This document shows positions 5,260 to 64,000 of a stretch of 64,000 nt of DNA, piece after piece; position 1 is the stretch's first letter; each line of letters opens with the position of its first letter. A model generated the notes under the pieces. It was not told where the DNA came from. It made no database searches and worked only from the letters and a program-made list of their open reading frames with translations. The position numbers were made by a program, and so were the translations under genes. The stretch comes from Eledone cirrhosa (taxonomy: Eukaryota), in NCBI GenBank assembly GCA_964016885.1, contig OZ024742.1:197470001-197534000 (forward strand). The letters are read 5' to 3'.

Positions 5260-5261
<2 letters not shown>

Positions 5262-8205: not shown

Positions 8206-8258
<53 letters not shown>
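5258..8258 (+). mobile_element. R4/Dong-like RLE non-LTR retrotransposon, copy 1, 5'-truncated and frameshifted
   Basis: RT motifs NYRPITCL, KNAFD and IFQGDSLSP, with FMHD in place of FMDD; CRIC...HIVSEC, RHD and RPDLV...DVACP restriction-like endonuclease; (AAT)n tail 8206-8258. Confidence 0.9.
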
Positions 8259-8259
<1 letters not shown>

Positions 8260-12300: not shown

Positions 12301-12972
12301 AGGAGGAGGCTAGCCCACTGTGCAGGATCTGTGGAGAGAGGAGACTGTGGCTCACATTGTATCCGAGTGTAAACACCTAGCCCAGACTCACTATAAGGGC
12401 TGGAGACATGATGTGATGGGCAGGGTGATCCACTGGCACCTATGCAACGTAAACAATTTACCACATTCTGAGAAGTGGTATGAGCATAAGCCAGAGGCGG
12501 TGATAGAAAACGATCAGGTGAAGGTGCTGTGGGATTTTAGGATACAGACGGACAAGAAACTGGAACACAATAGACCTGACCTGGTGGTTTTGGACAAAGA
12601 AAAAAGGTCGTGCCTGATTGTGGATGTGGCCTGCCCATTCGACACGAGGGTGCAAGAGAAGGAGAGGGAGAAAATTAACCGATACCAGGACTTAAAGTGG
12701 GACGTAAAAAGGATTTGGAACTGCCATGAAGTCAAAGTGATCCCGATTGTCATAGGCGCACTAGGTACTATTTCAAAAAGTTTCCAGGGATGGTTAAAGA
12801 AAATTGGCCCCTTCACGCTTTTTGGAACGCTTCAAAAGGCATGCTTGCTGGGAACAGCAAGAACCCTCCGATACGTCCTGAATATCTGAGGCTGCAGGTA
12901 GTGGCTTGATATTCATCTCAACAAACTTTCCAGTTAACTAACATCAATGACTGAGACTCAAAGAGTAATAAC

Positions 12973-13031
<59 letters not shown>
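9338..13031 (+). mobile_element. R4/Dong-like RLE element, copy 2, near full length with stops and frameshifts
   Basis: ORF pieces 9496-9861, 9882-10256, 10506-12380 (FMDD intact) and 12320-12889 (RLE); same 3' UTR as copy 1; (AAT)n tail; 5' boundary approximate. Confidence 0.9.
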
Positions 13032-14085
<1,054 letters not shown>

Positions 14086-24676: not shown

Positions 24677-24750
24677 ATGATGGCTGCCCCCTCGTTATCG
24701 AGTATGGCCATTGCACAATAAAAAAAAAAAAATAAATAAAAAAAAAAAAA

Positions 24751-24823
<73 letters not shown>

Positions 24824-27800: not shown

Positions 27801-28498
27801 CCATTGCTGTTACACTTTCCCACCCCATGCCTTCCGATTACATTCCATGTGTTAAAATCCCTACCCACTCTAGCATTAAAGTCACCAAGCACGATGACTT
27901 TGTCTGCCTGAGGGATATTTCTTAAAACACCTTTCAAGGCATGGTAAAAGGACAGTTTTTCTTCATCGACAGAATTCATAGTTGGAGCATACACACTCAC
28001 CAGGGTAGCATATCTTCCCTTGTCCAGCGGAACTCTCATGGACATAAGACGCTCACTAATCCCCACTGGGAATTCTTCCAATTTATTCACCAGTACAGTC
28101 TTAACAGCAAATCCTACCCCAGCCTCTCTTCTGGTTCCTTCATCTCTTCCTTTCCAGAAGAATGTATATTCTCCACAAAATTCCGTAAGATGACCATCTC
28201 CAGCTAACCTCGTCTCAGACAAAGCCACGATGTCAAGATCGTAACGTCGAAGCTCCTTCGCAACAAGAGCGGTCCTTCGTTCAGGACGCTCCAAAGAATC
28301 CCTGTCAAGCAGCGTCCGTACGTTCCAGCAGCCAAGACTAAATGCCCTGTTTGGCTCTATTACAATGGCACGATGACGGGCGGGCCCAGGTTGTGATAAC
28401 TTGGGGCCCCTGCCCTTATTGCCAATGATCTTTTTTGTTCCAGAACCCAAATTGGCAATTATCTCGTTTACATTGTTCTGGAACATCATTGAATTGGG

Positions 28499-28529
<31 letters not shown>

Positions 28530-28534
28530 TAATA

Positions 28535-28569
<35 letters not shown>

Positions 28570-28870
28570 ACACTATTAATAATTATTAATGCACTCGTGC
28601 AATGCCTGTGCGTGACGAATATTTTTAAAGTGAGGAAAGACTGTGCACTGAACCAATCCCACTCTCTGAGCGACAGTAGCTATAACCCGAAAAGAAGAAA
28701 AGATCAACATCATCGGTAACTACTGAGCCGCAGGTTTTATATCGGAGTTAACCCAGTTTCCTGAGATGCCTTCTCCTAGAAGAATACCCTGACATGGGCT
28801 AGGGGTTCTTCACTCCCAGTGGTTTAACTGCGCGATCGGGCATCCAGCCCGATTATTTCTATGTCCCCGC

Positions 28871-28872
<2 letters not shown>
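24677..28872 (-). mobile_element. RTE-clade LINE, near full length, with (TATG)n tail
   Basis: EN and RT ORFs, 3' end ...GAGGGGGCAGCCATCAT(GTAT)n, 5' UTR containing CTAGGAGAAGGCA. Confidence 0.92.
24943..28489 (-). pseudogene. RTE ORF: APE endonuclease, RT and three C-terminal C2H2 fingers; single frameshift near 27770
   Basis: WNVRTL, LSETR, VYAPT, GDFNA, LLDY and TDH; NYRGISLL, DLTKAFD, KQGD, LYADD and YLGS; three CxxC...HxxxH fingers. Confidence 0.92.
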
Positions 28873-28905
<33 letters not shown>

Positions 28906-29248
28906 ACTTATTGACACTTATACGTACGACATACACACACACGCATACATATGCGTGCACACAGCAACACTCACACACACAACAAACACACACACACGCT
29001 ACTCTACTCACTTACACGCACACACACACATATATATATATATTACCGTCATCACTGATACAAGATTACCAGATTATGTCAACTGTTGACTTTCAAGAGT
29101 TTGTATAGTTGAAGCCGATCGTATTACAGTCCAGTATTACTATAATTGCTTTACAGCATAGAGTTATGGCTCTCCACGGAGTCAACAAAAGAGAGTACCA
29201 GTGATGCGCTGGCCAGTCGCTGGATCCGTGCCAAAAGCAGAAAAATTA

Positions 29249-29279
<31 letters not shown>

Positions 29280-31174: not shown

Positions 31175-31905
31175 GAATGAAACGAAATTTCATTTCTCAC
31201 TCTTAGTACGGCACTTACTTAAATGTAAGTATGTATGTATGTATACGTACATACATATATGTATACAGACGTACAGTAGCATGTATATATATATACATAT
31301 ATGCACACATATATATATATGCACGTATCGGTTTACCGAACATTTATTATAATGCTCGGTTTGTTTGTTTGTAAACAAACAAACAGCCCGAATTACGCCG
31401 TACAGTGTTTAGGCAACCACGTCACCTTTTCTGTTCAACACTGACACAGGAACGATGTACTAGTTTCAAGCTTATTAGCTATCGTCAGCATCGTATACCT
31501 TCCTGCCAGATGGTTGAACGTCTGAAAGTATATACTTTCCTTATGCATATTAACGGCTGAGCAGCCTAATTTGCATATCAAGTGAGTTCAGTCGGCCGGG
31601 CACACCAAAAACGATAAATGGAATAGAATGAAAAGAAATTTCATTTCTCACTCTTAGTACGGCACTTACTTAAATGTAAGTAAGTATGTATACTTTAAGT
31701 ATGTGCCGTACTAAGAGTGAGAAATGAAATTTCGTTTCATTCTATTCCATTTATCGTTTTCTGCCGACTGAACTCACTCGATATGCAAATTAGGCTGCTC
31801 AGCCGTTAATATGCATAAGGAAAGTATATACTTTCAGACGTTCAACCATCTGTTCGGTAAACCGATACGCGCATATATATATATATATGTGTGCATGTAT
31901 GTATA
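31171..31905 (-). mobile_element. Hammerhead-bearing non-coding element (~450 nt unit, terminal redundancy, inverted tail)
   Basis: Direct repeat at 31171 and 31622; inverted copy at 31694-31900; second copy at 42071-42500. Confidence 0.7.
31452..31494 (-). ncRNA. Minimal type-I hammerhead ribozyme
   Basis: - strand reads ACGATG CTGACGA TAGCTAATAAGCTT GAAA CTAG TA CATCGT: stem I, CUGANGA, stem II, GAAA, palindromic CUAG, GUA cleavage triplet. Confidence 0.8.
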
Positions 31906-42342: not shown

Positions 42343-42387
42343 AACGATGTACTAGTTTCAAGCTTGTTAGCTATCATCAGCACCGTT
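42343..42387 (-). ncRNA. Minimal type-I hammerhead ribozyme, second copy
   Basis: - strand AACGGTG CTGATGA TAGCTAACAAGCTT GAAA CTAG TA CATCGTT. Confidence 0.8.
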
Positions 42388-46022: not shown

Positions 46023-47522
46023 ATACTTCCTTCTATGTGTCTTTCTCACTTCCATTCTTTCGCTCTCTATCCTTTTCTGGAAGAAATCTGCTGTATTCAG
46101 ACCTAGAAAGGAGATGATCTCCATCGAGTTTAAAGGTGCCCATATATTAATATGGTGTCTTTACCAATCCCTCAGGAATTACGAGACCATGCATCTTAAA
46201 TGTCGAAAAGGTAGTCATGACAAATAACATTTTCTATACTCTGGTTAACCTAGGGTTAAATAGCAACATGCTAAGCCATGAGGAGGATTAGACTAGAAGT
46301 TATATTTCTCATCTATTGCAACCTCTCACAAAAGCTCTTGTTTTATTCCAAAGCCCGAGCAGAATGACTTGTAAAATAGTAAACATAGTAATGACATTAT
46401 TGTAAAGGTTACATTCTGTGGATATCGATGTAAAGGAGAGGAGGCAGTAGTATGTTTATACAATAGAAAACTCGGCTATATTTCTGTCGAAATAAACGAC
46501 ATTGTTTATCTGTGCGTGTACAGATGTGTTAGAGAGACGCGCCTCTGTGTTTAATAACAAATATGTGTGAGAGCACGTGCATATGTACATGTATAACTTC
46601 GTATGTTTTACAATAATCTATCTTTAGGAATGGATGTATAAACATCCAACTGTTTATACCAGAAGAATACTCTCGCTCACATGGTTTACTTGCTTGTACT
46701 TGTGATGGCGTTCATCCGATTCCATCAAAGGAATTCACTGTGTAAGTACATTTCAATCGAGTTACTTCGGGCGATTGGTTTTAGAAGCGGTGCCCAGCCG
46801 CAAGTATATGTATTTTATGATAGTGCATTCCAAGCATTGCATCAGTTATAGTGCCGACTTCTCGCTTTCATATGCAACACAATTTGGCGGAGCCTGTACC
46901 GTGACTGGGACGTATGGGAAGGAGTTTGGTCGGCATAGGTGATAAACACAACATATTTGAGCCATTTTGTAGCCCAGCTGGACCTCACCACACTGCCCAA
47001 CTTAGGCATACCGACCCTCAGCACCTGGACATCCATCATCCTAAACATGACTGGACATCTATCATCATGAACATTCTAGATATCCATTACCTAACGCCTG
47101 TTTGTTTTAGGTTAGAAGCTGTTAATAATGGTGGCAAAAAAAAAAACGTCTTCAGGCTGTTAACCTCAACTTTACTGTTATCTGAATATTTTTGCTGTTA
47201 TTTGGCTTTTTTGTAAAACAATGTTCCAATGGCGTTGTCTCATAAAACTATAACTACGTTATAACCTTGAATGTAAATAGAAGTTCAACTCCGATGTATG
47301 TATATGTATGTATGCATGTATGTATGTATATATGTATGTATGTATGTATGTTTATATGTTTGTATGTATGTGTATTCAACTCCGACTCGAATACACATAC
47401 ATACAAACATATAAACATACATACATACATACGTACATACATACATACATACATACATACATACATACATACATACATACATACATACATACATACATAC
47501 ATACATGTGTATATACATATTT

Positions 47523-47656
47523 ACACACTTTTGGATGGCCGTTGACTCTTATGAGTTCTTCCGCCTTTGTCATGTTTTGTTTTTTGTCCTGCAGGGTGTC
47601 CAAATTCAACCTCCTCACGAAGTAAACTTGGTGAGGTTGCCGGTTTAGTCGCCGAC
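47523..47656 (-). mobile_element. RTE family-1 5' leader fragment
   Basis: Matches 24397-24531 and 61672-61804. Confidence 0.8.
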
Positions 47657-47667
47657 ATACATACATA

Positions 47668-50118
47668 TCGGAGGTATCTTACTGACCTCCACCAAGAAGT
47701 TCTTAAGGGAGATACACTTATACCAGAATAGTTGACATTAGCACAAACATTACTGCTCCCCAAGAAAAAAGACACCCACTTGGCAAAAAACTACCGACCC
47801 ATTGCATGCCAGAACCTGATGTATAAGATGTATACAGCCAGCCTGAACCTATTCCTCCAAGATTACTGTGAAAATAATAACATCATCACAGATGAACAAG
47901 CAGCTGGAAAGAAAGGAGTTTGGGGATGTGCTGAACAACTCCTAATCAACAAAACTGCGATGTCGGAGGTGCGAGAACTTAGGAGGAATATGGCTACAGT
48001 CTGGCTGGACTACAAGAAAGCTTTCGATTCTGTTCCCCACTCTTGGATGATAGAGGCCCTCCAGCTTGTTAAAGTCCCAGGACATTATTATCAGAGCCAT
48101 AGAGAAGCTGTCTCCTAAGGTTAAAGACAGAGAGGGAGGACTCTATTTTCACTGATAAAATAAAATATCGCAGGGGTATATTTCAGGGAGACTGTCTCTC
48201 TGTGATATTATTCATCCTGTCATTAAACCCCTTGTCAAAATCCTGCTCAAGAAATGTGAAGGATACATCATTGACTCACATGAGGACAGAAATACGAACC
48301 TAACCCATAATTTCTTTGTGGATGATCTGAAACTCTATGCCAAGAACATGGATGGGATAAAGAAAAATCTTGACCTGGTTACAACGTTCTCAAAGGATAT
48401 AGGAATGGAGTTTGGCCAAGATAAATGCTCATATATGACTGTAAAGCGGGGGAAAACAACAACCCAATCTAGCAACATTGTCATCAATGGCCTAACTGTT
48501 TCAGCGATATCTGATGAGAACTGCTACAGATACCTGGGGATAGATGGGAACTTATCCTATAATGGTATCTGTAATAAGGAACGCGTAACCAGGGAATACT
48601 ACACCCAATTAAGAAAGATTTGGTCATCGGAACTGTCTGCGCAAAACAAAACAGTGGCTCACGATGTGTTTGCTGTGCCTGTCCTAACACCAACGTTTGG
48701 AATACTCAATTGGACGATAGACGAAATCCGAGCGATTGATGTTGGAACTCGAAAAATACTAAACAACACCGGAAACTTCCACATCAACAGTGACATCGAC
48801 CACCTTTACATGAAACGTAAGCAGAGAGGCAGAGGCCTAACATCAGACCAGACATCATTTGAATGTCGCATCATATCTCTCCGACATCATTGATGAACCT
48901 CGAAGCGTAGGAGCCCGTCTCTCGAGCATGTCTATCTGCATGAAACAGATAAGATCATGAGAATTGGGAAGGAACTCCTCGAGAGATATTCCCTGTGTGA
49001 TAATCATAAGCTCACACCCAGGGAAGTCGCTCAGCAGTATCGCAGTGAATCCATGGATGAAAAACTGCATGCTTTTCAGCAAAAAATCATGCATGGATAT
49101 GTTGCCAGGAAGCTCCAGAGTGAGAGTAATATAGATAAGGAAAGTAGTCTATCTTGGACCAACAACCGCTATATTGGCTCCCACTTTGAAGGATACGCTT
49201 TTGCAATCCAAGAACAGGAAATTAACACGAAATACCTGATTCACAAGAGAGATAGGGATGCAGGCAAAACACCTAAATGTGATAACAAGTGCAAACTCTG
49301 CAGAATTAACATCGAAGATATCACCCATGTCATCAGCAGCTGTCCAAAGATGTCATCGCGGTACTATCTACCTATTAGGCATGATATAGTGGCCAAAACA
49401 CTGTACAATGCAATCCGTAAAAAAGATAGCCCCGATAATAAACACATTAAAAGCTACAGCAATGCGGAAGACATCCATGTTCATAATATGTAAGAGTACT
49501 GGTGGAATGTTCCTGTAAATACCCCCAATAAAATACAGGCATAACAGACCAGATATTATGATATGGGACAGGGTAAAGAAAGCATGCACAGTAGTGGAAA
49601 TTAGCTGCCCAGCAGATGCCAATGTAATATCAAAGATTAGCGAAAAGGAGAATATTTATGCAGAACTGATGAGAAATCTGCAGATACTCCACCCCGATTA
49701 CACCTTCAGATTTATGCCTGTGATTGTTGGGGCACTAGAGTATGTTAGTAAATGCCTCAATACAAATCACGAGAAGCTAGGCTTCACAGGAACAGAAATA
49801 ACACAACTAGTTAGGAAATTACAAGTCCAATCCATTAATGGAACAGTAAAAATATGTAAAACATTCCAGACATTTTGCATCTAATAACTGCATTTACACA
49901 TGTACAGATGAAAAGCATATACACATGAACACATACACCTCAGAACATACACATCCACAGATACAATAACATCCATAACTACACATGCATGCATGCAGAC
50001 ATACATATCTACCTAGTTGATGTTGTGTAAATTCCAATGAGATAGTCTTGTGTCTATGTTAGAAACCGACTGTCTCTCTATTGGGAAAAAATTTGTGAAA
50101 TTATAAAACCAGAAGAAC
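47668..50118 (+). mobile_element. RLE non-LTR retrotransposon family A, copy 1, 5'-truncated, in (CATA)n
   Basis: NYRPIAC, DYKKAFD, IFQGD, FVDDLK and YLG; CKLC...HVISSC, RHD and PDI...EISCP; ends AAAACCAGAAGAA(CATA)n. Confidence 0.9.
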
Positions 50119-50130
50119 ATACATACATAC

Positions 50131-50161
<31 letters not shown>

Positions 50162-50215
50162 CATACATACATACATACATACATACATACATACATACAT
50201 ACATACATACATACA

Positions 50216-52234
50216 TGCACTCTTGGATGATAGAGGCCCTCCAACTTGCTAAAGTCCCAGACATTATTGTCAGAGCCATAGAGAAGCTGTCTTCTTCTTG
50301 GGCTACTATCCTAAGGTTAAAGACAGAGAGGGAGGACTCTATTTTCACTGATAAAATAAAATATCGCAGGGGTATATTTCAGGGAGACAGTCTCTCTGTG
50401 ATATTATTCATCTTGTCATTAAACCCCTTGTCCTTTCTGCTCAAGAAATGTGAGGGATAAATCATTGGCTCACGGGAGGACAGAAATACGAACCTAACCC
50501 ATTTCTTTGTGGACGATCTGAAACTCTATGCCAAGAACATGGATGGGATGAAGAAAAATCTTGACCTGGTTACAACGTTCTCAAAGGATATAGGAATGGA
50601 GTTTGGCCAAGATAAATGCTCATATATGACTGTAAAGCGGGGAAAAACAAAAACCCAATCTAGCAACATTGTCATCAATGGCCTAACTGTTTCACCGATA
50701 TCTGATGAGAACTGCTACAGATACCAGGGGATAGATGGGAACTTATCCTATAATGGTATCTGTAATAAGGAACGCGTAACCAGGGAATACTACACCCGAT
50801 TAAGAAAGATTTGGTCATCGGAACTGTCTGCGCAAAACAAAACAGTGGCTCACAATGTGTTTGCTGTGCCTGTCCTAACACCAACGTTTGGAATACTCAA
50901 TTGGACGATAGATGAAATCCGAGCAGTTGATGTTGGAATTCGAAAAATACTAAACAACACCGGAAACTTCCACATCAACAGTGACATCGACCGCCTTTAC
51001 ATGAAACGTAAGCAGAGAGGCAGAGGCCTAACATCAGACCAGACATCATTTGAATGTCGCATCATATCTCTCCGACATCATTGACGAACCTCGAAGCGTA
51101 GGAGCCCGTCTCTCGAGCATGTCTATCTGCATGAAACAGATAAAATCATGAGAATTGGGAAGGAACTCCTCGAGAGATATTCCCTGTGTGATAATCAAAA
51201 ACTCACACCCAGGGAAGTCGCTCAGCAGTATCGCAGTGAATCCATGGATGAAAAACTGCATGCTTTTCAGCAAAAAATCATGCATGGATATGTTGCCAGG
51301 AAGCTCCAAAGTGAGAGTAATATAGATAAGGAAAGTAGTCTATCTTGGACCAACAACCGCTATATTGGCTCCCACTTTGAAGGATACGCTTTTGCAATCC
51401 AAGAACAGGAAATTAACACGAAATACCTGATGTGATAACAAGTGCAGACTCTGCAGAACGAACATCGAAGATATCACCCATGTCATCAGCAGCTGGTACT
51501 ATCTACCTATGAGGCTATCTACCTATGAGGCATGATGTAGTAGCCAAAACACTGTACAATGCAATCCGTAAAAAAGATAATAAACACATTAAAATCTACA
51601 GCAATGTGGAAAACATCCACGTACATAATATGAAAGAATACTGGTGGAATGTTCCAGTAAAAACCCCAATAAAATGAAGGCATAACAGACCAGATATTAT
51701 GATATGGGACAGGGTAAAGAAAGCATGCACAGTAGTGGAAATTAGCTGCCCAGCAGATGCCAATGTAATATCAAAGATTAGGGAAAAGGAGAATATTTAT
51801 GCAGAACTGATGAGAAATCTGCAGATACTCCACCCTGATTACACCTTCAGATTTATGCCTGTGATTGTTGGGGCACTGGGCTATGTTAGTAACTGCCTCA
51901 AAACAAATCTTGAGAAGCTAGGCTTCACAGGAACAGAGAGAACACAACTAGTTAGGAAATTACAAGTACAATCCATTAATGGAACAGTAAAAATATATAA
52001 AACATTCCAAAAATGTTGCATCTAATAACTGCATTTACACATGTACAGATACAAAGCATATACACATGCACACATACAACTCAAAACATCCATATCCACA
52101 CATACAATAACATCCATATCTACATGCATGCATGCATACATAATCTACCTAGTTGATGTTGTGTAAATTCCAATGTTAGAAACCGACTCTCTCCCTATTG
52201 GGAAACCATTTGTGAAATTATAAAACCAGAAGAA
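50216..52234 (+). mobile_element. RLE family A, copy 2, head-to-tail with copy 1
   Basis: Near-identical ORF pieces 50215-50460, 50509-51084, 51148-51435 and 51699-52025; same 3' end. Confidence 0.9.
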
Positions 52235-52294
52235 CATACATATATACATACATGCAGTCATTCATATTTACATATATACATGCATGAATGTACA

Positions 52295-53922
52295 TGTTAA
52301 TTGCTACTTCTTGTCTGAAGAGTGCAATCCATTCATTGAACATTGCATGGTCAGGTTCATGCAGGTGACTTTTCAAACCCACTTTTGTTTTGCAGGCACA
52401 TTCACAGATGTGACACTTGAACTGTCTGTCTCCTGGTAAAACCATGTCTGGTCAGTCCACCATCTGATTTGCAAGTTAGGCACTCACTGCAAATGTATCG
52501 TCGAGTTTGTGGTTGTAGAACCATCTCACAAGGGCTAGATTTCTCCCCGGCTCGTGTGATTTCAGAAGGTTGACAAATCCAGCTCTTGTTAGGAGAAATC
52601 GGCCACATACATTGCACCTCAATTCCTGCTGGATATTTGCATGTATTGCACTTGAACCCTGCTTACGAAATGAACGTTTCAAAACAGCATGCTCCACTCA
52701 TATTTGATAATCTTTCTCCGTGATGTACGGCCTTCGGCCAGTCTCTCCCAGTTCTCTATATCAATCTTCAGAGCTTTAAAATTGTCTTTTATGACATCCT
52801 TAAACCGCTTCTTTGGTTTATGCTGTGGCCTTTGCCCACAGGTCAGCTCCCCATAAAATAACTATTTAGGCAGCTCCTCATACAATAATTGTTTAGGCAG
52901 CCCTCCATCTTCCATCCTTTAATATCTCGTTGATAGTTGACCTTATCTCATCAAGGGTTGGATCATTCCTCACCTCTGTAACAGTCTCCCTTTGCAGCAG
53001 TCCATAAATAATTTCCTCCTCAACTACAGATGGATTGTCAAACAGATCTTTAGAGTGTTCAGTCCACCAACTCATGTTACTTGATGGATCTTTGATGAGA
53101 ACATTCCCATCTTTTGACTTTCGTGGTGCCATTTTTTATGATTGTGGACCCAAAACCTACCTTATTGTGCTGTAGAGTACCTTCAGATCTGTAGTTATAA
53201 GCCCTCTGCATCTCTGCTGAAACTTCAGACCACCAGTTCTTTATCTTTCATGTTTTACTTTGCAGTTTTAATTTGCTTCTTTGAAGGTTTTCTCAAAAGT
53301 TGTCTTCACTAGACCCTCTGCAACAAGACACTTCTCATACAGCTTGTTCTTTTCTTCAATGAGCATGGTGATTGCAGCATCATTGTCATCGAACCAGTCT
53401 CTGTGTTTTGTTCTCTTAAGACCAAGTACATCAGCCCCAACACTATAAACTTGTGTTCTAAACTATTCCCAAGTTCCATCAAAGACGATGTTGTCCAGTG
53501 CATTTTGAAGAGCATCTCGCATTTCTACACTCTGCAGTTTTGACACATCAAAACGTTTTGGCGTTTGTCCTCAATTTTCTTCAGATTTCCCACGTACAAG
53601 TTTGTGGTCTGTACCACATTCTGCACCGTGCATAACACTTAGACAGCAGATATCATATATTGCATATGACCAGCTCAAACTCAGTGCAAAGGAAGAGCAT
53701 TGCCCATGTCGTGACGTCCTAAAACGCTCCATATGTGCTCGTTTCCAATACATGCATCAACATCTCCAAAAGCAAGATCTTATCCAAATGTGGAATTGAT
53801 GCGTCCCCTTGCAAAAGGGACTCTTAGGTGCATGATTCGATCACTTATGCCTTGTGGTTGTTCCAGTCATTTTGTGATCTTTGTCTGGACAGAAAAACCT
53901 ACTCCTCCATTCCTTTTCTCCC
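52295..53922 (-). mobile_element. Highly degenerate RTE with C2H2 remnants
   Basis: GAECGTDHKLV, RKSKDG, CNVCGR and CHICEC..K.GLKSH fragments. Confidence 0.75.
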
Positions 53923-53987
53923 CATACATACGTACATACATACATACATACATACATACATACATACATACATACATACATACATAC

Positions 53988-54600
53988 ATGGTGGTGGCTG
54001 CCAACTCATTTTCGAGTACGGCCACTACTTTATATCCATGTAGGAGAACCCCTACCGATGCGCTGAACGAGTGTGACTTTTTTATCCAGCCAGCGACTTG
54101 AAAGCTCTGGTACAAACACTACACTTGTGACAACTATTGACACATAGTGCTGGGCCCATGGTACCCGGTGACGACAAGTGCAGAGAGATCTCCAGATATA
54201 AAGCAATGCCTGTGCCGTGAAGCTTTTATAGTGAGCAAAGGCACTGCACAAAGCCAGTCCCACTCTCTTAACCAAGATGATATTTACCAAAAAGAAGAAC
54301 AAGTCAACATCATTGGATACCATCAGAGTTGCAGGTGTTATATCAGAGTTTTCCTTCTCCTAGAATTCTGCCTTGACAAAGGCTAAGGGGTCATCTCTCC
54401 CGGTAATTTTGGATTGCCATTGACTCTTAAGAGCTCCTTTGCCCTTTGACAGGTTTTGTTTTTAGTCCTGCAGGATGTCCAAAATCACCCTCCTCATCAA
54501 GAAACCTTGGTGGGGTTGCCAGTTTAGTCGCCAACGACCCGACCATGAGACAGGTTGTACTGGGATACATGTTACCAGTAGCACCAACTGGTGACCTGAC
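53988..54600 (-). mobile_element. Bipartite non-autonomous RTE derivative (family 2)
   Basis: Shares the 5' leader with families 1 and 3; 3' end CTCGAAAATGAGTTGGCAGCCACC(ATGT)n; further copies at 60252-60657 and 62728-63193, 3' fragment at 31905-31970. Confidence 0.8.
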
Positions 54601-54764
54601 ATACATACATACATAATGGCATACATACATACATACATACATACATACATACATACATGCATACATGCATACATGCATACATACATACATACATACATAC
54701 ATACATACATACATACATACATACATACATACATACATACATACATACATACATACATACATAC

Positions 54765-57700
54765 ATGATGGCTGCAAACTCTGCCAAGAGTATTGCAATC
54801 GTTTGTCAGATTCAGAAGTGTGACGCTCGGATATGGCTTTTCAAGCCTGCTAGAGACTTGCACTCCTTCACACACTGACAACAACTATGATCTCCTTGGC
54901 TTGAGGTCCTGCATCAGGTTTCTCGTGAACCCTCACAATACCGTGGAGATCATAGTTCACTGGTTCTCTTTTAACATGGCTGCGACTGTGGCTCCTGAGA
55001 CCAGATTTGCTCAAGCAAATGTTTCCACACTCGGCATTTCAATTCAATGGATACAGCGATCGTTTCGAGAGATACACCAGGGCATTGCTTACGCACATCG
55101 CGTTTGATCTTCTTGTGATCTACGCGTCTGTCCTAAAAATTATGGCCCCCATCATTCACCATTCCACGCCAAGTTTCTCTTTCAAGAGCTTCTATCTCCC
55201 AGTCAGCCATCATCAAACCATTTTTTTTCAATGAGTCCTTTACACAATCCTTGAATCGGAGCCTTGGCTTGTGAGGTGGTCTGTTACCCTCACAAAGCTC
55301 GCCATAAAGAGTTGTTTGGGGATTCGATCATCCTCCATTCTGTAGAGGTGTCCGGTCCATCGCAAACCCCGTTGGTCGATGAAACTCTCAATGCTCCGAC
55401 ACTCACTTTTCTCAAGGACCTCAACATCACTCACATGCATCTGCCACTTGATACCGAGCATCTTTCTGAGACACTGCTGGTGAAACCGTTCCAGTCTGTG
55501 GATATGCCGCCTGTAGGCAACCCATGTCTCACATGCATACAGCAAAGCTTACAGTACACATGCAGCATACACTCTAACCTTGGTCCTCATTGTGATTCCT
55601 TGCCTGCACCAAAGACGGTCGTTGAGCCTTCCAAATGACTCACTTGCCTTACTAACACGTAGACCAACTTCTGCATCCAGAGAGCAGGCCACACTCAGAG
55701 TACTCCCCAAATACACAAATGTGTCAGCAGCCTTCAGCTTTTGACCGTATACGTATATGGAGGGTTCATTGAAAACTTTATCCGGAGCAGCTTGGTACAT
55801 GACGACAATCTTCTTCAGACTGATTGTCAGTCTCAAAGCACTGCACGCATTGCAAAAACAATCCATAAGGTGTTGCATGTCACTCTGGGAGTGTGAAAAG
55901 AGATCACAATCATCTGCATATAAATATTCTCTGACCAAGGTATTCAGTACCTTAGTATTGGCAGTGAGATGCCTAAGGTTAAACAGCTTGCCGGAAGTGC
56001 GATATCTGAGATAGATACCGTGTTGACAATCGTTGAAGGCCATGAAGAAGATCATTGCGAAATACAAGGCAAACAAAGTCGGTGCAGGTATATCACCCTG
56101 CTTGACACCATTTTCAACCGAGATTGGCTCAGACAGTTTACCTCCAACATTCACTCATGCCTGCATGTCGTCGTAGAAGAGTTTCAGAATGTTCACAAAC
56201 TTTTCAGGACAGCCCAATCTCTCCAAAATAACCCACAAAGCCTTCCGATTAACGGTATCAAATGCCTTGGTCAGATCGACAAAAACCAGGTATAAGTCCA
56301 TGCGCTGCTCAATGCATTTCTCTTGAAGTTGTTTGGCCGAGAAGATCATGTCAACAGTGCCTCTGCCATTCATAAAGCCACATTGGGACTCAGGAAATAC
56401 CTCAACAGCAATGTGCTGTATCAATCTGTCCAACAAAATCCTGCATAAGATCTTCACAGCCACAGATAGCAGCGAGATACCTCTGTAGTTACCACACTCA
56501 TCTTTGGCTCCCTTTCCTTTGTAAAGTACCACCATCAATGCATCTTTCCAGTCCTATGGCACATCTTCTTCATTCCAAACATTCACAAAGAGATCAGTGA
56601 GGCGGTTTAAGAAGTTATCACCAGCACACTTGAAAATCTCGGCACTCAATCCATCCATTCCAGGTGACTTGCCGCTGTTTAATTTGGCAATGGCCTTCGC
56701 CACCTCATCAAATGAAGTAACTCAGTACTACCTGTCTCATGGTCGGGTCGTCGGCGACTAAATCGGAAACCCCACCAAGCTTGCCTTGTGAGGAGGGTGA
56801 TATTTGGACACCCTGCGGGATGAAATACAAGACCCGGCAAAGGGCGGGGGAATTCAGCAGAGTCAACGGCCATCCAAATAGTACCTTTTTTTTTTTACCT
56901 GGGAGTGAAGGTCCCCCATCTGATGATGTTGACCAGTTCTCCTTTTCGGGTAGTGTTTTCGATGCTCAGAGTGTGTGATTGGTCGCGGACATGGCATTTC
57001 CCCACTTAAGAAGCCTTCAAATCACAGACATCGCTTGTTCAGGATCTGTTACAGGTTCGTGTGGCTGGCCGTAGCCTAAAAGTGCACCAAACTCTATGAT
57101 GACAGATGATAACCGTGAAGTCAATGGCAGTAAGGGATCTGGAACTTATTGTGAAGGGGTATGGCCCGGCAGGTGTCCTATGGCACCGCAGCGTGGGCTC
57201 GGTCATCATCCTACAACTGCAAAGAGGTTCAAACCTCTGAATATTGGATGCTGGAATGTAAGAACTTTACTTGATTCCCAGTCCAGTGAAACTCGCCCTG
57301 GAAGAAGATCTGCTTTGGTGTCGAGGGAACTCAATCGCTATAGCATGGACATCGTTGCTCTTTCAGAAACGAGATTGGCAGGTGAGGGTCAATTCACAGC
57401 ACAGAAGGGAGGATATACCTTCTATTTGAGTAGTGGAACAGAGGGTCGCATTTGCTATCAGGAATGGAATCGTCTCAAAGCTGGAAAATCTTCCTTGTGG
57501 ATTCAATAATCGGATAATGTCCATGAGAGTCCCTCCGATTCAAAACCGCTTTGTGACTCTGGTCAGTATGTACGCTCCTATTATGTGTGCCAGTGATGAG
57601 ATGATAAAAAACTAAGTTTCTACATGTCTTTGAGAGAGGTCATCCATGGTGTACTTTATGCAGACAAGATTGTCATCCTTGCTGATTTTAATGCAGGTGT

Positions 57701-58641
57701 TGGTAATGACTGGGAAGCTTGGAGTGTGATGGGCAAGCATGGAGTAGGTAAGTGCAATAACAATGGCCTACTTCTGTTGCAGATGTGCACTGAGATGGAT
57801 CCTGTTGTTGGGAACACGCTCTTTCAGAAGAAAGACAAATATAAGACAACTTGGATGCATCCAGGTTCCAAGAAGTGACACCTTATTGATTTTGTTTTAG
57901 CGAGGAAATGTGATATCAGGGATATTACATTGGTTCGTGTATTGCGAAGCACGGAATGCTGGACTGATCATCGTCTGGTGCGCGCCAAGTTTCAATTTGT
58001 TGTGAAGCCTAAAGTAAGGGGGAAGAAGGTTGCACTTCCAAAACAACTAAACGTGGCTCGTTTGAAAACAGAGAAAGTCAGAGCTGAGCCGTCGAAGTCC
58101 TTTGAGTCCATGGAATGTGAAAACACTTGGGAATCATTGAATAACACCGTCTATGATGTTAATGCTGGAGTTTTGGGTCATACCAATAGAAAGCATAAAG
58201 ACTGGTTAGATGAAAATGATGCAGTGATCCAGACCTTGCTTGAAGAGAAACAAAAAGTGCTGACATCATTGTTGTGTGAGACACGTTCTGACAGGAGTGA
58301 CCGGACCTTTAGGCAGATCAAGGCACGTGTGCAACATCGATTGAGAGTCATGCAGGATACCTGGTGGAGCCAAAAGGCTGATGAAATCCAGAAGGCCTCA
58401 GATAGACATGATACAAAGCTCCTATATAGTCTGCTCAGGGAGGTGTATGGTCCGACCGGTTCACAAATATCACCACTTCACTCCAGAAATGGCAAGGAGT
58501 TGTTCAGAGATCCGAAGGAAATCCTGAACAGGTGGGATGATTACTTTGATGAGCTTCTCAACAGAACATCAGAAATTGATGATGAGTTCATCCGGTCGAT
58601 TCCATCCCAACCTACAAAGCTGGCAATGGCTGATCCTCCTT
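54765..58641 (-). mobile_element. RTE LINE (family 3) with inverted 5' half
   Basis: RT half on - (54765-56717); 5' UTR plus EN half on + (56717-58641); protein continuity AMADPP|SFDEVAKAIAKLNSG. Confidence 0.88.
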
Positions 58642-58990
58642 GACTGTTTTGTTTTGGTGAGTCTTTAACTGACGTTGGTGTCTACTGGCCGAGAGGTTAT
58701 TGTTCTCCACACTTCCGATAGAAAGTAATACCAAAGAGACCGCAATCGGCAATATTTTGTACATGGCTTCTATGACTTCAAGGACTACCTTTACTGAGGC
58801 AAATTAGGCCACACACATTACACATAGTCATTTTGAGCATCTGAAAATCCAGGTAAAGAAATATCGTGTAGTCCCTTACTTTGACCCCTCTTTAATTGTT
58901 CATGCTCCACACGAGATGTTTTATACACATGCATACATACATACATACATACATACATACATACATACATACATACATACATACATACAT

Positions 58991-59041
58991 AATGGCTGCC
59001 CCTTGTTATCGAGTATGGCCATTGCACGAGAAGAAAAAAAA

Positions 59042-59073
<32 letters not shown>

Positions 59074-59087
59074 TTAAAAAAAAAGAG

Positions 59088-59150
<63 letters not shown>

Positions 59151-59206
59151 CATACATATATACATACACACATACATACACATACACACACACATACATT
59201 AATAAC

Positions 59207-59264
<58 letters not shown>

Positions 59265-59300
59265 GCAATAATAATAGCAATAATAATAATAACGACAACA
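58991..59300 (-). mobile_element. RTE family-1 3' UTR fragment with expanded microsatellites
   Basis: ATGGCTGCCCCTTGTTATCGAGTATGGCCATTGCACG matches 24680-24716. Confidence 0.7.
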
Positions 59301-59360
59301 CCATACATACCTACATACATACATACATACATACATACATACATACATACATACATACTT

Positions 59361-59838
59361 GATGTCTGCAAACTCGTATTCGAACATTGCCATCGCCGAT
59401 AAAATGCCCAAAAATGTGACGCACAAATGTGGCTCTTTAAACCAGCCATACTTGCACCCTCTCGCACATAAATGGCAAATGTAGGCTCTTCGGGGACTTT
59501 GCATTGCTTTGCTCTGCATGTGTGTTCTCATAAGCCCTTCCATGTTAGCACATTCCTTGCCACATTTTTTACACCTTTTCAGATCATAATCTACATGAGG
59601 TCTACTGATATGACTTTGTTCGTGTCTAGTCAAACCAGCTTTATTCAGGCAGACTCGACCACAGTGCTGCCAAACCAGATGATGTTCAACAGCAGACAGT
59701 TCAGAACAGTCTCTTTTCACTTATTTTCTTTTTCAATGTTAGGTGTTCTCCCGAACGAGTTTCAAAGTGTTCACTACCTGACTTGATCAAACGTCTCCAC
59801 TTCACACGCTCCTCGGCCATTTTCTCACATTCATCAGA
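59361..59838 (-). mobile_element. RTE 3' fragment with C2H2 fingers
   Basis: CGRVCLNKAGLTRHEQSH, CKKCGKEC and CHLCAR..MAGLKSH. Confidence 0.7.
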
Positions 59839-59866
59839 TACATATATACATACATTCATACATACA

Positions 59867-60247
59867 TGATGGCTTCCCCCTCGTTATCTAGTATGGCCAT
59901 TACACGATATAACATTATTGATAATTATTATTATGAGTTCAAATCCCGCCGAGGTTAACTTTGCCTTTCATCCTTATGGGGTTGATAAAATAAAGTACCA
60001 GTAATGTACTGGGTAATTGCTGGTCTTGTGCCAAAAAGTAGACAGAATTATTGATAATTATTAATTAATACTATCGTGCAATGCCTGTGCGTGAAGATTT
60101 TTTTTAAAGTGAGGAAAGACTGTGCACTGAGCCAATCCCACTTTCTGAGCGACAGTAGCTATAACCCGAAAAGAAGAAAAGATCAATATCATCGGTAACT
60201 ACTGATCCGCAGGTTTTATGTCGGGGTTATCCTAGTTTCCTGAGTTA
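59867..60247 (-). mobile_element. Family-1 derivative carrying a 5'-truncated SINE insertion (59934-60047, +)
   Basis: SINE core flanked by duplicated ATTATTGATAATTATTA. Confidence 0.8.
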
Positions 60248-60251
60248 ACAC

Positions 60252-60657
60252 ATGTGGTGGCTGCCAACTCGTTTTCGAGTACGGCCACTACTTTATATCC
60301 ATCTAGGAGAACCCCTACCAATGCGCTGAACCAGTGACTTTTAGTCCAGCCAGCGACTTGAAAACTCTGGTACAAACACTACACTTGTGACAATTATTGA
60401 CACATAGTGCTGGGCCCATGGTACCATGTGACGACAAGTGCTGAGAGATCTCCAGATATAAAGCAATGCCTGTGCCGTGAAGCTTTTATAGTGAGCAAAG
60501 GCACTGCACAAAGCCAGTCCCACTCTCTTAACCAAGATGATATTTACCAAAAAGAAGAACAAGTCAACATTATTGGATACCATCAGGGTTGCAGGTGTTA
60601 CACCAGAGTTTTCCTTCTCCTAGAATTCTGCCTTGACAAAGGCTAAGGGGTCATCTC
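60252..60657 (-). mobile_element. Family-2 derivative, 5'-truncated
   Basis: Near-identical to 53990-54397. Confidence 0.85.
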
Positions 60658-60726
60658 ATACATACATACATACATACATACATACATACATACATACATA
60701 CATACATACATACATACATACATACA

Positions 60727-61232
60727 AACAATGAGAAGGAATATTTTGAGATAGATAACACTAAAGAATACTGATGGAACCTGAAAATAGAAACTGCCAC
60801 CAAATTAAAGTACAACCAGCCTGATATTGCTTTTGGGGACCACACATTGAAAATGTGCTCTGTTGTAGAAATCAGCTGCCCACTTGATATCAACGTTGTA
60901 AGAAAAATACAAGAGAAGGAAGACATCTACGGGCCATTGATGAGGAGTTTGCAGATCCAGTATCCAAGATACACCTTCAGCTTTATACCCATCATTATTG
61001 ACGCTACAGGTTATACACCAGCCCGCTTGAACCAAAGTATAACTGAACTTGGATTTTTGGACAAAGAACGTAGCTTCCCAATTCATAGACTACAAATGGC
61101 TGCGATAGGTGGCACCTTCAAAATTTGCAAAACACTCTTGAGATTCAAGGCTTGACAATTTCTTTTCTTTTACAACCATGCCACCAGGAAGGTGGCCGGT
61201 CAAAAAGGTACTCAAAATTAGAGAAAGAGAGA
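60727..61232 (+). mobile_element. RLE family B 3' fragment
   Basis: QPDI..CSVVEISCP...KEDIY...KICKT; ends GAGAAAGAGAGA(CATA)n. Confidence 0.85.
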
Positions 61233-61246
61233 CATACATACATACA

Positions 61247-61869
61247 TGATGGCTGCCCCCTCCTTATCGAGTATGGCCATTGCGCGATATACCATTATTA
61301 ATAATTATTAATTAATTACATCGTGCAATGCCTGTGCGTCAAGATATTTTTAAAGTGAGGAAAGACTGTGCACTGAGCCAATCCCACTCTCTGAGCGACA
61401 ACAGCTATAACCCGAAAAGAAGAAAAGATCAACATCATCGGTAACGACTGAGCCGCAGGTTTTATATCGGAGTTATCCCAGTTTCCTGAGTTGCCTTCTC
61501 CTAGAAGAATGCCCTGACAAAGGCTAGGGGTCCTTCACTCCCAATGGTTTAACCGCGCGATCGGGTGTCCAGCCCGACTATTTCTATGTCCCCGCGCATA
61601 TACATACACATGCACCCATGCATATACACATATACATATACACACATGTATATGTGTATATACATATATACACACTTTTGGATGGCCGTTGACGCTTATG
61701 AGTTCTTCCGCCCTTTGTCAGGTTTTGTTTTTTGTCCTGCATGGTGTCCCAAATCTCCCTCCTCACCAAGTAAACTTGGTGGGGTTGCCGGTTTAGTCGC
61801 CGACGACCCGACCATGTGACAGGTTGTACTGGGTTACATGTTACCAATAGCACTCAAGAGAGTCCCGAC
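61247..61869 (-). mobile_element. Family-1 bipartite RTE derivative, full length
   Basis: Complete 5' leader, UTR and 3' end, between (CATA)n tracts. Confidence 0.88.
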
Positions 61870-61925
61870 ATACATACATACATACATACATACATACATA
61901 CATACATACATACATACATACATAC

Positions 61926-62410
61926 AGATGGCACTAAGGAATACTGGTGGAACCTGAAAATAAAAACTGCCACCAAATTAAAGCACAACCGGCCTGATAT
62001 TGTAGTTTGGGACCACACATTGAAAACGTGTTCTGTTGTGGAGATCAGCTGCCCACTTGATGTAAACGTTGTCAGAAAAATACAGGAGAAGGAGGACATC
62101 TACGGACCATTGATGAGGAGTTTACAAATCCAGTATCCAAGATACACCTTTAGCTTCATACCCATCATTATTGGTGCTACGGGTTATATACCAACCCGCT
62201 TGGACCAAAGTATGACTGAACTTGGATTTGCGGACAAAAAGCGCAGCTCCCTAATTTATAGTCTACAAATAGCTGCGATAGCTGGCACCTTCAAAATTTG
62301 CAAAACATTCTTGCGATTCAAGGGATGACAATTTCTTTTCTTTTACAACCTTGCCACCAGGAAGGTGGCCGGTCAAAAAAATATACTCGAAATTAAGAGA
62401 AAGAGAAAAC
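61926..62410 (+). mobile_element. RLE family B 3' fragment
   Basis: EYWWN...HNRPDIVVWD...EISCP. Confidence 0.88.
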
Positions 62411-62422
62411 ATACATACGTAC

Positions 62423-62697
62423 ATGATGATGGCTTCCCCCTCGTTATCGAGTATGGCCATTGCACGAGAAAAAAATAATAATAATAACAATAATAATAAC
62501 AATAACAACAATAACAATAACGTCAACAACAACAATAATAAATATACATATATATATATACACACACGCACACACAAATATTTCGATACACACACACACA
62601 CACGATACCAATTAACAGCGCTGCGATAGAATGTGGATTTTTAGCCCAGCCAATGATCTAAAATGTCTCGCACAAAGTCGGCAACCAAAACATTCAC
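62423..62697 (-). mobile_element. RTE family-1 3' end including the last zinc finger
   Basis: CFGCRLCARHFRSLAGLKIH matches the C-terminus of ORF 24943-27828. Confidence 0.85.
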
Positions 62698-62727
62698 TGT
62701 ACATACGTACATATATACATACGTATA

Positions 62728-63193
62728 TGGTGGCTGCCAACTCGTTTTCGAGTACGCCCACTACTTTATATCCATGTAGGAGAACCCCTACCGATGTGCT
62801 GAACGAGTGTGACTTTTTAGTCCAGCCAGCGACTTGAAAACTCTGGTACAAATACTACACTTGTGGCAATTATTGTCACATAGTGCTGGGCCCATGGTGC
62901 CATGTGACGACAAGTGCAGAGAGATCTCCAGATATAAAGCAATGCCTGTGCCGTGAAACTTTTATAGTGAGCAAAGGCACTACACAAAGCCAGTCCCACT
63001 ATCTTGACCAAGATGATATTTACCAAAAAGAAGAACAAGTCAACATCATTGGATACCATCAGGGTTGCAGATGTTATATCAGAGTTTTCCTTCTCCTAGA
63101 ATTCTGCCTTGACAAAAGCTAAGGGGTCATCTCTCCCGGTGATTTTGGATGGTCATTGACTCTTAAGAGGTCCTTTGCCCTTTGACAGGTTTT
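62728..63193 (-). mobile_element. Family-2 derivative
   Basis: Near-identical to 53990-54455. Confidence 0.85.
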
Positions 63194-63227
63194 ACATACG
63201 TACATACGTACATACGTACATACATAC

Positions 63228-63497
63228 TGGAACAGTAAAAATATGTAAAACATTCCAAAAATTTTGCTTCTAATAACTGCATATACACATGTACAGATAC
63301 AAAGCATATACACATGCACACATACAACTCAAAACATACACATACAATAACATCCATATCTACACATGCATGCATGCATACATAATCTACCTAGTTGATG
63401 TTGTGTAAATTCTAATGAGAGAGTCTTGTGTCTATGTTAGAAAACGACTCTCTCTCTATTGGTGAAAAATTTGTGAAATTATAAAACCAGAAGAATA
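63228..63497 (+). mobile_element. RLE family A 3' end
   Basis: Matches 49840-50118. Confidence 0.85.
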
Positions 63498-63555
63498 TAC
63501 ATCCATACATACATACATACATACATACATACATACATACATACATACATACATA

Positions 63556-63860
63556 CGGGCCATTGATGAGGAGTTTACAAATCCAGTATCCAAGATACAC
63601 CTTTAGCTTCATACCCATCATTATTGGAGCTACGGGTTATATACCAACCCGCTTAGACCAAAGTATGACTGAACTTGGATTTGCGGACAAAAAACGCAGC
63701 TCCCTAATTCATAGTCTACAAATGGCTGCGATAGCTGGCACCTTCAAAATTTGCAAAACATTCTTGCGATTCAAGGGATGACAATTTCTTTTCTTTTACA
63801 ACCTTGCCACCAGGAAGGTGGCCGGTCAAAATAATATACTCGAAATTAAGAGAAAGAGAC
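63556..63860 (+). mobile_element. RLE family B 3' fragment
   Basis: Matches 62103-62410; (CATA)n on both sides. Confidence 0.88.
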
Positions 63861-64000
63861 ACATACATACATACATACATACATACATACATACATACAT
63901 ACATACATGTACATGGCGTCTGAGGATGAACAAACGTCCATCTATAATGTTCAAAACGTTGAGCTCTACAAAGGAATACAAATCTATCATATTTTATGTG

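What the first reader, a model, noticed from the sequence alone, without database searches (positions are those of the whole stretch)
47400..64000. Self-amplifying microsatellite niche shared by unrelated retrotransposon clades
Seen: about 16 kb of nearly twenty insertions separated mostly by (CATA)n. RLE elements are + with a CATA tail. RTE elements and derivatives are - with a TATG tail. The same two-clade, opposite-strand arrangement occurs on (AAT)n at 0-14 kb (Dong-like +, Tx1 -), and hammerhead elements occupy (TA)n. Inference: each insertion regenerates target repeat for itself and the other clade, creating safe-harbour arrays and expanding microsatellites.
Basis: partly seen in the sequence, partly recalled or inferred. 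Interest (0 to 1): 0.7.

Follow-up and report, generated by a model that had tools for sequence, protein, structure and literature searches.

The report
Retrotransposon clades stacking in shared microsatellites
Nineteen jumping-gene copies from two unrelated groups are stacked back to back in short CATA repeats, each group facing its own way here and across this likely octopod genome, likely because their enzymes cut opposite strands of the repeat and each insertion leaves two usable pieces; the repeat is a landing site rather than a tail, and net growth of the repeat is only partly shown.

Summary
Observation confirmed. Window 47.4-63.9 kb holds 19 insertions: 6 Dong/R4-like RLE LINEs (all +), 12 RTE LINEs or RTE-derived SINEs (all -, one 5'-inverted) and one tRNA-like SINE, joined by 838 nt of (CATA)n. 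Polarity holds in 100 random 10-kb loci: RLE 18/18 ends on the CATA strand, RTE 27/28 on TATG, Dong 22/22 on AAT, Tx1 17/17 on ATT. The mechanism needs correcting. TATG is the RTE target, not its tail: RTE copies end in (ATC)n or (ACC)n, and 78 of 153 flanks are TA-type rather than TATG. Each RTE or Tx1 insertion splits a run and duplicates about 9-17 nt; no duplication could be read for RLE. Clustering far exceeds chance, but feedback cannot be separated from long pre-existing fields. New lead: RLE-B has a longer pure CATA run at its 5' end than at its 3' end (median 14 vs 3 units, p=0.005). The piRNA, safe-harbour and read-support claims are untested. This scan found the same guilds elsewhere in this genome. 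New variant of known microsatellite targeting (Dong, Waldo, Kibi/Koshi).

The parts
47395..63908 (.). Whole polarised array: 19 insertions joined by (CATA)n linkers (838 nt)
47507..47655 (-). Fragment of SINE-C-type head (RTE 5' UTR-derived), truncated at both ends
47668..50116 (+). RLE-A copy 1, 5'-truncated, degenerate (RT, CCHC knuckle, RLE region)
50217..52233 (+). RLE-A copy 2, 5'-truncated, 91% identical to copy 1
52254..53922 (-). RTE-Z, old internally deleted RTE LINE (29-44% aa identity to RTE-Y)
53990..54598 (-). SINE-B copy 1, full-length bipartite RTE-derived SINE (RTE head, body, RTE 3' end)
54767..56718 (-). RTE-X 3' part (RT and C-terminal zinc-finger region)
56722..58640 (+). 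RTE-X 5' part (UTR and APE endonuclease), inverted; its end is contiguous with the 3' part in intact copies: a twin-priming-type 5' inversion
58641..58926 (-). Fragment of another old RTE family, cut on its 3' side by RTE-X
58992..59301 (-). RTE-Y-type 3' UTR fragment carrying internal A, AAT, TA and CA runs
59359..59826 (-). 3' fragment of a further RTE family
59868..60246 (-). SINE-C fragment with a nested tRNA-like SINE (59934-60059, +)
60250..60657 (-). SINE-B copy 2, 5'-truncated
60727..61231 (+). RLE-B copy 1, 3' fragment
61245..61867 (-). SINE-C copy, full length
61927..62408 (+). RLE-B copy 2, young (99-100% identical to copies on other contigs)
62424..62698 (-). RTE-Y-type 3' fragment
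62728..63192 (-). SINE-B copy 3, truncated in the head
63225..63496 (+). RLE-A copy 3, 3' fragment
63557..63860 (+). RLE-B copy 3, 3' fragment
24679..29249 (-). RTE-Y, very young RTE LINE (40 of 40 listed hits 100% identical over 501 nt), flanked by CATA on both sides, with two SINEs stacked at its 3' side (23580-24595); both UTRs carry (ATT)n
105..5186 (-). Tx1-like LINE (APE and RT) in (AAT)n
5258..13911 (+). Three Dong-like RLE LINEs in (AAT)n; 8259-12965 is full length
31452..31494 (-). Minimal type-I hammerhead-like motif in a TA-flanked repeat
42343..42387 (-). Second hammerhead-like motif, same repeat family

Best explanation
The array is a nested stack of independent non-LTR insertions in one microsatellite: two Dong/R4-like RLE families sit specifically in (CATA)n with CATA as sense strand, and RTE LINEs and their SINEs sit in alternating TA/TATG tracts with TATG as sense strand, likely because the two endonucleases nick and prime on opposite strands. 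Shown: polarity, repeat on both flanks, split runs, short duplications for RTE-type and Tx1 elements, and clustering. Inferred: target-primed reverse transcription with a fixed nicked strand sets the polarity (RLE would nick the TATG strand; the RTE APE would nick the CATA strand, priming with an AT microhomology to its (ATC)n end). Each insertion turns one run into two and adds about 3 units, and slippage likely keeps the halves usable, so occupied sites gain further insertions (mild positive feedback). The longest arrays likely also need a long starting field or a tolerant region. The same logic fits Dong(+)/Tx1(-) on (AAT)n, where RTE-Y also ferries (ATT)n targets in its UTRs.
For: Random 1 Mb: RLE 18/18, RTE 27/28, Dong 22/22 and Tx1 17/17 repeat-adjacent ends in clade polarity. 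By locus: 9/9, 8 plus 1 mixed, 9/9 and 9/9 informative loci. Family searches: 84 of 117 RLE flanks are CATA and none TATG; of 153 RTE-type flanks 59 are TATG, 78 TA/alternating, 16 other and none CATA; background 0.23% CATA, 0.15% TATG, 8.3% TA/alternating. 5'-truncated RLE and SINE copies abut the repeat at varied truncation points. The 5' and 3' flank classes agree in 25/29 SINE-B and 15/21 SINE-C copies. RTE-Y ends GCAGCC(ATC)1-2 and then AT in 19/19. Non-periodic duplications of 9-13 nt occur in 6/21 SINE-C copies vs 0.7 in shuffled pairs. Tx1 nested in RTE-Y UTR runs left 8+6 units vs 8-11 in intact copies, and a 17-nt duplication read by eye in L143. A guild neighbour lies within 250 nt at 32/83 element sides vs 1.2% for uniform placement; dispersion 2.7. 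21 of 30 CATA fields of 5 or more units touch a guild element; equal-target Poisson gives P(n>=18) below 1e-13. RLE motifs and APE domains are confirmed.
Against: No nicking or insertion assay exists; strand choice is inferred from orientation. No duplication could be read for RLE (0 of 33, pure repeats hide it), and SINE-B marked duplications (6/29) did not exceed shuffles (mean 3.0, max 6). The 39% neighbour rate alone also fits Poisson filling of fixed long targets. A geometric chain at p=0.39 predicts only about 0.01 arrays of 18 genome-wide, so feedback at the mean rate is not enough. A 1,080-nt CATA field (L102) is empty, so more target does not by itself bring insertions. RTE-type elements are not CATA-specific, so the 'shared niche' is only the overlap of two preferences. 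33 of 117 RLE flanks missed the 3-unit CATA cut-off. Family loci were top-similarity hits (young copies); random loci came from 8 contigs covering 1.96 of 3.0 Gb.
Confidence: 0.65

Rival explanations
1. Targeting is real but there is no feedback: the array is a long pre-existing CATA field, or a tolerant low-recombination region, that filled up with insertions.
For: Empty fields of 500-1,100 nt exist (L102, L127). Linkers total 838 nt, of which 18 duplications of about 12 nt would give only about 220 nt. The geometric model under-predicts the array. Three separate stacks lie within about 80 kb here.
Against: The longest random field is empty. Array linkers are purer than such fields. Duplications are shown for SINE-C and Tx1.
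Confidence: 0.22
2. RLE-B itself writes new pure (CATA)n while joining its 5' end (slippage or repeated template jumps on the upstream target), so it is the true amplifier.
For: Paired RLE-B copies: pure run median 14 units 5' vs 3 units 3', longer at 5' in 13 of 17 (Wilcoxon p=0.005); unpaired 12.5 vs 3 (p=0.0003). Runs with an RLE 5' end on one side only have median 8 units vs 4 for an RLE 3' end (60 vs 57 runs, p=0.002). RTE-flanking runs have median 4 on either side.
Against: Not significant for RLE-A (p=0.30), nor when impure repeat is counted (p=0.12). 13 of 24 RLE-RLE linkers are 6 units or fewer. Truncated SINEs are not enriched upstream of RLE 5' ends (16/29 vs 47/69, p=0.25). A cut near the 3' edge of long runs, set by an upstream DNA-binding footprint, explains the asymmetry equally well.
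Confidence: 0.2
3. RTE elements make (TATG)n tails that seed the target for RLE elements.
For: RTE 3' UTRs generate microsatellite families in Lepidoptera (PMC2887409, abstract). In the array nearly every RTE 3' end is followed by TATG.
Against: Only 28 of 69 RTE-type 3' flanks are TATG. The 3' flank copies the class of the 5' flank. The intrinsic end is (ATC)n or (ACC)n.
Confidence: 0.05
4. The array is a mis-assembly or tandem duplication joined at CATA runs.
Against: Copies of one family differ (85-98% identity) and have different truncation points. There is no N gap inside. The same junction types occur on many contigs. The left flank is single-copy apart from a 300-nt repeat.
Confidence: 0.03

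Closest known systems
Dong (R4 clade; Bombyx Dong, DongAg, DongBg, ostracod Dong1/2), (TAA)n-specific (PMC7998251, PMC3812793; passages read)
   Same: RT plus C-terminal CCHC and restriction-like endonuclease, no APE, microsatellite target. The 0-14 kb Dong-like element uses (AAT)n as described. RLE-A, RLE-B and the Dong-like element share a short N-terminal motif.
   Different: RLE-A/B are only 33-37% identical to the Dong-like element, lie in a separate supported clade and use (CATA)n, a target not found for this group in searches.
Waldo (R1 clade, APE), ACAY microsatellites (PMC3812793, passages read)
   Same: Non-LTR elements inserting in the same ACAT/CATA repeat.
   Different: A different clade; here the users are an RLE group and RTE elements, on opposite strands of one run.
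Kibi (TC)n and Koshi (TTC)n, Tx1 clade (PMC4494074, PMC3812793; passages read)
   Same: A Tx1-like APE LINE with a microsatellite target and fixed polarity.
   Different: The target here is (ATT)n, shared with Dong on the other strand.
RTE LINEs and RTE-related SINEs (PMC6007223, passages; PMC2887409, abstract; octopus RTE-2_OV in PMC9115989, passages)
   Same: Short tandem-repeat 3' ends, duplications near 10-13 nt, first duplicated base matching the tail. RTE-Y has the RTE-2_OV layout (single ORF, C2H2 fingers, microsatellite 3' UTR).
   Different: A strong preference for alternating TA/TATG tracts on both flanks (137 of 153), rather than a T-stretch signature in unique DNA. RTE-Y was not aligned to RTE-2_OV; its first ATG-to-stop span is about 3.55 kb against the 3,327 nt reported.
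Penelope-like elements and hammerhead-bearing partners with (TA)n bias (PMC8557442, passages; bioRxiv 10.64898/2026.07.22.740005, search listing only)
   Same: Hammerhead-like motifs in inverted-repeat elements beside (TA)n: 52 of 54 random-locus motifs lie within 500 nt of (TA)5+, vs 41% of random positions.
   Different: No two-clade polarity can be defined on the self-complementary (TA)n; cleavage was not tested.

Membership tests
R4/Dong clade (RLE-A, RLE-B) | Single ORF with RT, C-terminal CCHC knuckle and PD-(D/E)xK-type endonuclease, no APE | tested here: met
   Open 1,032-aa stretch in L055 with RT, CxxC...HxxxxC, RHD, RPD and E-I-S-C-P motifs; no APE family hit
R4/Dong clade (RLE-A, RLE-B) | RT groups with named R4/Dong elements | tested here: inconclusive
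   Far closer to this genome's Dong-like element (E 1e-124) than to solved R2 proteins (E 1e-27), but no named R4/Dong reference was among the hits; RLE-A/B form their own 100/100 clade
R4/Dong clade (RLE-A, RLE-B) | N-terminal SANT/Myb-like domain without zinc fingers | tested here: inconclusive
   A 34-aa motif is shared with the Dong-like element (E 3e-7 pairwise); Pfam gives no SANT/Myb hit
Dong proper (RLE-A, RLE-B) | (TAA)n target | tested here: not met
   Flanks are (CATA)n; the 0-14 kb element does meet it
RTE clade (RTE-X, RTE-Y) | Single ORF with APE and RT, short tandem-repeat 3' end | tested here: met
   PF03372 and PF00078; open 5' frame in young copy L196; (ATC)n end
RTE clade (RTE-X, RTE-Y) | RT phylogeny with named RTE elements | not tested
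   No named RTE reference was fetched; the assignment rests on architecture and on the match to the RTE-2_OV description
RTE-mobilised SINEs (SINE-B, SINE-C) | Share the LINE 3' end and its insertion signature | tested here: met
   Shared 3' end and RTE-X-like head; same flank classes and AT start; 9-13 nt duplications for SINE-C
Tx1 clade (105-5186) | Two ORFs, APE and RT, target preference | tested here: met
   clade placement with named Tx1 elements was not tested
piRNA cluster | Produces piRNAs from a long precursor | not testable with these tools
   No small-RNA data available
Hammerhead ribozyme elements | CUGANGA and GAAA cores, three stems, UH site | tested here: met
   Two motifs by my own scan, none in 300 kb of shuffled sequence; Rfam missed them; self-cleavage untested

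The most novel reading that the evidence does not exclude
The CATA-targeting RLE retrotransposon is a microsatellite polymerase: at each insertion it writes 10-20 new pure CATA units at its 5' junction, creating targets for itself and for RTE elements on the other strand, so that most long CATA runs of this genome, and its polarised retrotransposon stacks, are products of the element.
Probability: 0.2. Interest if true: 0.8.

Novelty: new variant of a known kind. Interest (0 to 1): 0.5.

Why it matters
Microsatellite targeting is known family by family. Here several unrelated and recently active families share repeats in fixed opposite polarity, which gives a natural panel for asking how RLE and APE endonucleases choose strand and repeat (CATA vs AAT within Dong-like elements). 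It bears on why such genomes are rich in both microsatellites and LINEs. It also predicts that any read-through transcript of an array is antisense to one clade, a possible route to mutual silencing (inference). RTE-Y resembles the brain-expressed octopus RTE, so its likely insertions should be sought in TA/TATG tracts, which short-read callers tend to mask.

Tried and rejected
Rfam found no hammerhead or HDV-like ribozyme at E<=1 in the window, and a strict hammerhead scan found none; a relaxed scan found two. The palindromes at 34026-34151 and 42896-43011 hold only the GAAA-stem III-GUC half, read by eye. The idea that RLE insertion deletes upstream DNA and writes a new run was tested through SINE truncation and not supported. 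A haplotig or empty paralogue of the array's left flank was sought and not found. Sequencing runs: no RNA holder listed. Homologue searches gave almost no names, so clades were not anchored to named references; the nearest named hit for RLE-B was an Argonauta protein at 64%. ARAGORN found no tRNA. No host gene was found among 24 long ORFs, which is not a gene annotation. The AAT-guild dispersion value (3.0) is inflated by internal repeats of one Dong copy (L094) and is not relied on. PMC3124438 (passages) was not informative.
Full report
Setting. The window is G000:C3:197470001-197534000 in a 3.0-Gb assembly. The nearest named homologue of RLE-B is an Argonauta protein (64%) and RTE-Y matches the layout described for octopus RTE-2_OV (PMC9115989, passages), so the genome is likely octopod (inference).

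Observation. Tandem-repeat mapping, self-BLAST and a window-derived library resolve 47395-63908 into 19 insertions: three RLE-A and three RLE-B copies on +, twelve RTE LINE pieces or RTE-derived SINEs on -, and one nested tRNA-like SINE. CATA linkers make up 838 of 16,514 nt. The 200 kb of neighbouring DNA shows that the array stops at about 63.9 kb. It is followed by a small stack of reversed overall polarity (64.1-64.9 kb), and a second AAT stack lies at 73.9-77.6 kb with three Dong on - and one Tx1 on +. The one apparent exception, an RTE on + at 56722-58640, is the inverted 5' half of RTE-X: its end and the start of the - half are contiguous in intact copies. Copies of one family in the array are 85-98% identical with different truncation points, which argues for separate insertions.

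What the elements are. RLE-A and RLE-B are 50% identical, carry RT, CCHC and restriction-like endonuclease motifs, and are 33-37% identical to the Dong-like element of the AAT stack; they fall in a separate supported clade among unnamed homologues (48 rows, every third hit plus named ones). RTE-X and RTE-Y carry APE and RT. SINE-B and SINE-C join an RTE 5' head to an RTE 3' end. RTE-Y and RLE-B are very young: 40 of 40 listed RTE-Y hits are 100% identical, and RLE-B hits 97-100%.

Polarity genome-wide. In 100 random 10-kb loci, drawn from 8 contigs of known length, repeat-adjacent ends were in clade polarity for RLE 18/18, RTE 27/28, Dong 22/22 and Tx1 17/17. By locus the counts are 9/9 (12 loci held the family), 8 plus 1 mixed (19), 9/9 (10) and 9/9 (14). 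All 8 adjacent cross-clade pairs of the CATA guild were opposite.

Target, not tail. After dropping 13 loci that were window copies or duplicates, 84 of 117 RLE flanks were (CATA)3+ and none TATG. Of 153 RTE-type flanks, 59 were TATG, 78 TA or other alternating repeat, 16 other and none CATA. Background is 0.23%, 0.15% and 8.3%. Even TA-type flanks lean to G on the sense strand (49 vs 11). RTE-Y ends in GCAGCC(ATC)1-2 followed by AT in 19 of 19 (one of 20 was interrupted by a Dong copy). The two flanks of a SINE are mostly of one class (25/29, 15/21). So RLE elements are CATA specialists, RTE elements are broad users of alternating TA/TATG tracts, and CATA is where the two overlap. One RLE-B copy ends directly in (TA)39 (L009), so an RLE tail is at most short.

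Does each insertion add target? Partly. SINE-C shows non-periodic duplications of 9-13 nt in 6 of 21 copies against 0.7 in shuffled pairs; SINE-B (6 of 29 vs 3.0) is not significant, and RLE (0 of 33) is unreadable. Two Tx1 copies nested in RTE-Y UTR runs, whose intact length is known, gained about 15-17 nt. RTE-Y also carries (ATT)n in both UTRs; Dong, Tx1 and the tRNA-like SINE were each found inserted there (L334, L181, L143, L238), a real cross-guild supply of target, though not the one proposed. Duplications could account for roughly a quarter of the array's CATA.

Clustering. There are 49 guild elements per Mb with dispersion 2.7; 32 of 83 element sides have a neighbour within 250 nt against 1.2% for uniform placement. 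21 of 30 CATA fields of 5 or more units touch an element. Equal-target Poisson filling cannot give 18 elements (P below 1e-13), but a geometric chain at the observed rate also under-predicts it (about 0.01 expected among an extrapolated 96,000 clusters), and a 1,080-nt field is empty. Feedback, field length and regional tolerance are therefore not separated.

An unexplained asymmetry. RLE-B has a long pure run at its 5' junction and a short one at its 3' junction (median 14 vs 3 units, 17 pairs, p=0.005). RLE-A (p=0.30) and the SINEs do not show it significantly, and it weakens when impure repeat is counted (p=0.12). Across all loci, runs with only an RLE 5' end have median 8 units against 4 for an RLE 3' end (p=0.002). 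Either the enzyme cuts near the 3' edge of long runs, or it writes new repeat during 5' joining. R2 5' junctions show microhomology, duplications and non-templated bases (PMC2718515, passages), but I saw no report of repeat synthesis there. Empty alleles would decide.

Hammerheads. Two minimal type-I motifs lie in TA-flanked inverted-repeat elements in the window, and 52 of 54 motifs in the random loci lie within 500 nt of (TA)5+ against 41% of random positions. A (TA)n bias is known for Penelope-like elements (PMC8557442, passages).

Comparison with print. Dong on (TAA)n, Waldo on ACAY, Kibi and Koshi on (TC)n and (TTC)n are known (PMC3812793, PMC7998251, PMC4494074, PMC4640811; passages). 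RTE tails and their link to target choice are known (PMC6007223 passages; PMC2887409 abstract). RTE, Dong-R4 and Tx1 are listed as recently active in Octopus vulgaris, and the word 'target' does not occur in that paper's main text (PMC13282606). Searches returned no description of a CATA-specific RLE element, an (ATT)n Tx1, or opposite-strand co-tenancy. Kojima and Fujiwara 2003 and 2004 were seen only as cited, and Repbase and supplements were not seen; they may hold such targets. Earlier notes of this scan describe the same guilds elsewhere in this genome; my reading was recorded before I saw them.

Verdict. Real, genome-wide and mechanistically coherent; a new variant of known microsatellite targeting. 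The tail-based self-amplification is wrong for RTE, modest duplication-based gain is shown, and the piRNA and safe-harbour roles are untested. Interest 0.5.

Noticed in passing
window 54767-58640; L152, L074, L113, L237, L275, L288: Twin-priming-type 5' inversions in RTE-X (window and 1 of 29 other loci) and in about 5 of 87 non-query SINE copies; papers read describe these mainly for human L1 (PMC4245944, PMC2912911, passages).
   Followed up: partly
window 24679-29249; L181-L210, L331-L350: RTE-Y is likely active now (40 of 40 listed hits identical) and carries (ATT)n and poly(T) in both UTRs; two 3' UTR types coexist, with and without a TG/TA block.
   Followed up: partly
window 14367-16361, 31507-31852, 32934-33656, 34024-34151, 41905-42006, 42896-43011: Many long palindromes flanked by (TA)n; two hold only half a hammerhead (read by eye).
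   Followed up: partly
window 47280-47394: A (TATG)n run of opposite polarity at the array's left edge, bracketed by a repeated 10-nt word and a short inverted repeat.
   Followed up: no
window 40156-41296: 33-bp minisatellite, 34 copies, strongly G-skewed.
   Followed up: no
window 37780-38173 and random loci: A tRNA-like SINE is very abundant (153 hits per Mb) and often sits by (ATT)n; possibly a partner of the Tx1-like LINE.
   Followed up: no
L327-L329 and L246-L249: Tandem units of about 4 kb (RLE-B plus SINE) and about 32 kb, showing that some stacks also grow by tandem duplication or assembly repetition.
   Followed up: no
L320, L186: L320: a CATA run follows a single internal CATAC of an RLE-B 5' fragment, directly before a full RLE-B. 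L186: (CAT)n, the RTE tail motif, sits at an RTE-Y 5' junction. Both hint at template jumping.
   Followed up: no
window 105-5186: The window's Tx1-like copy lacks about 950 nt that other copies hold at the ORF1/ORF2 border.
   Followed up: no
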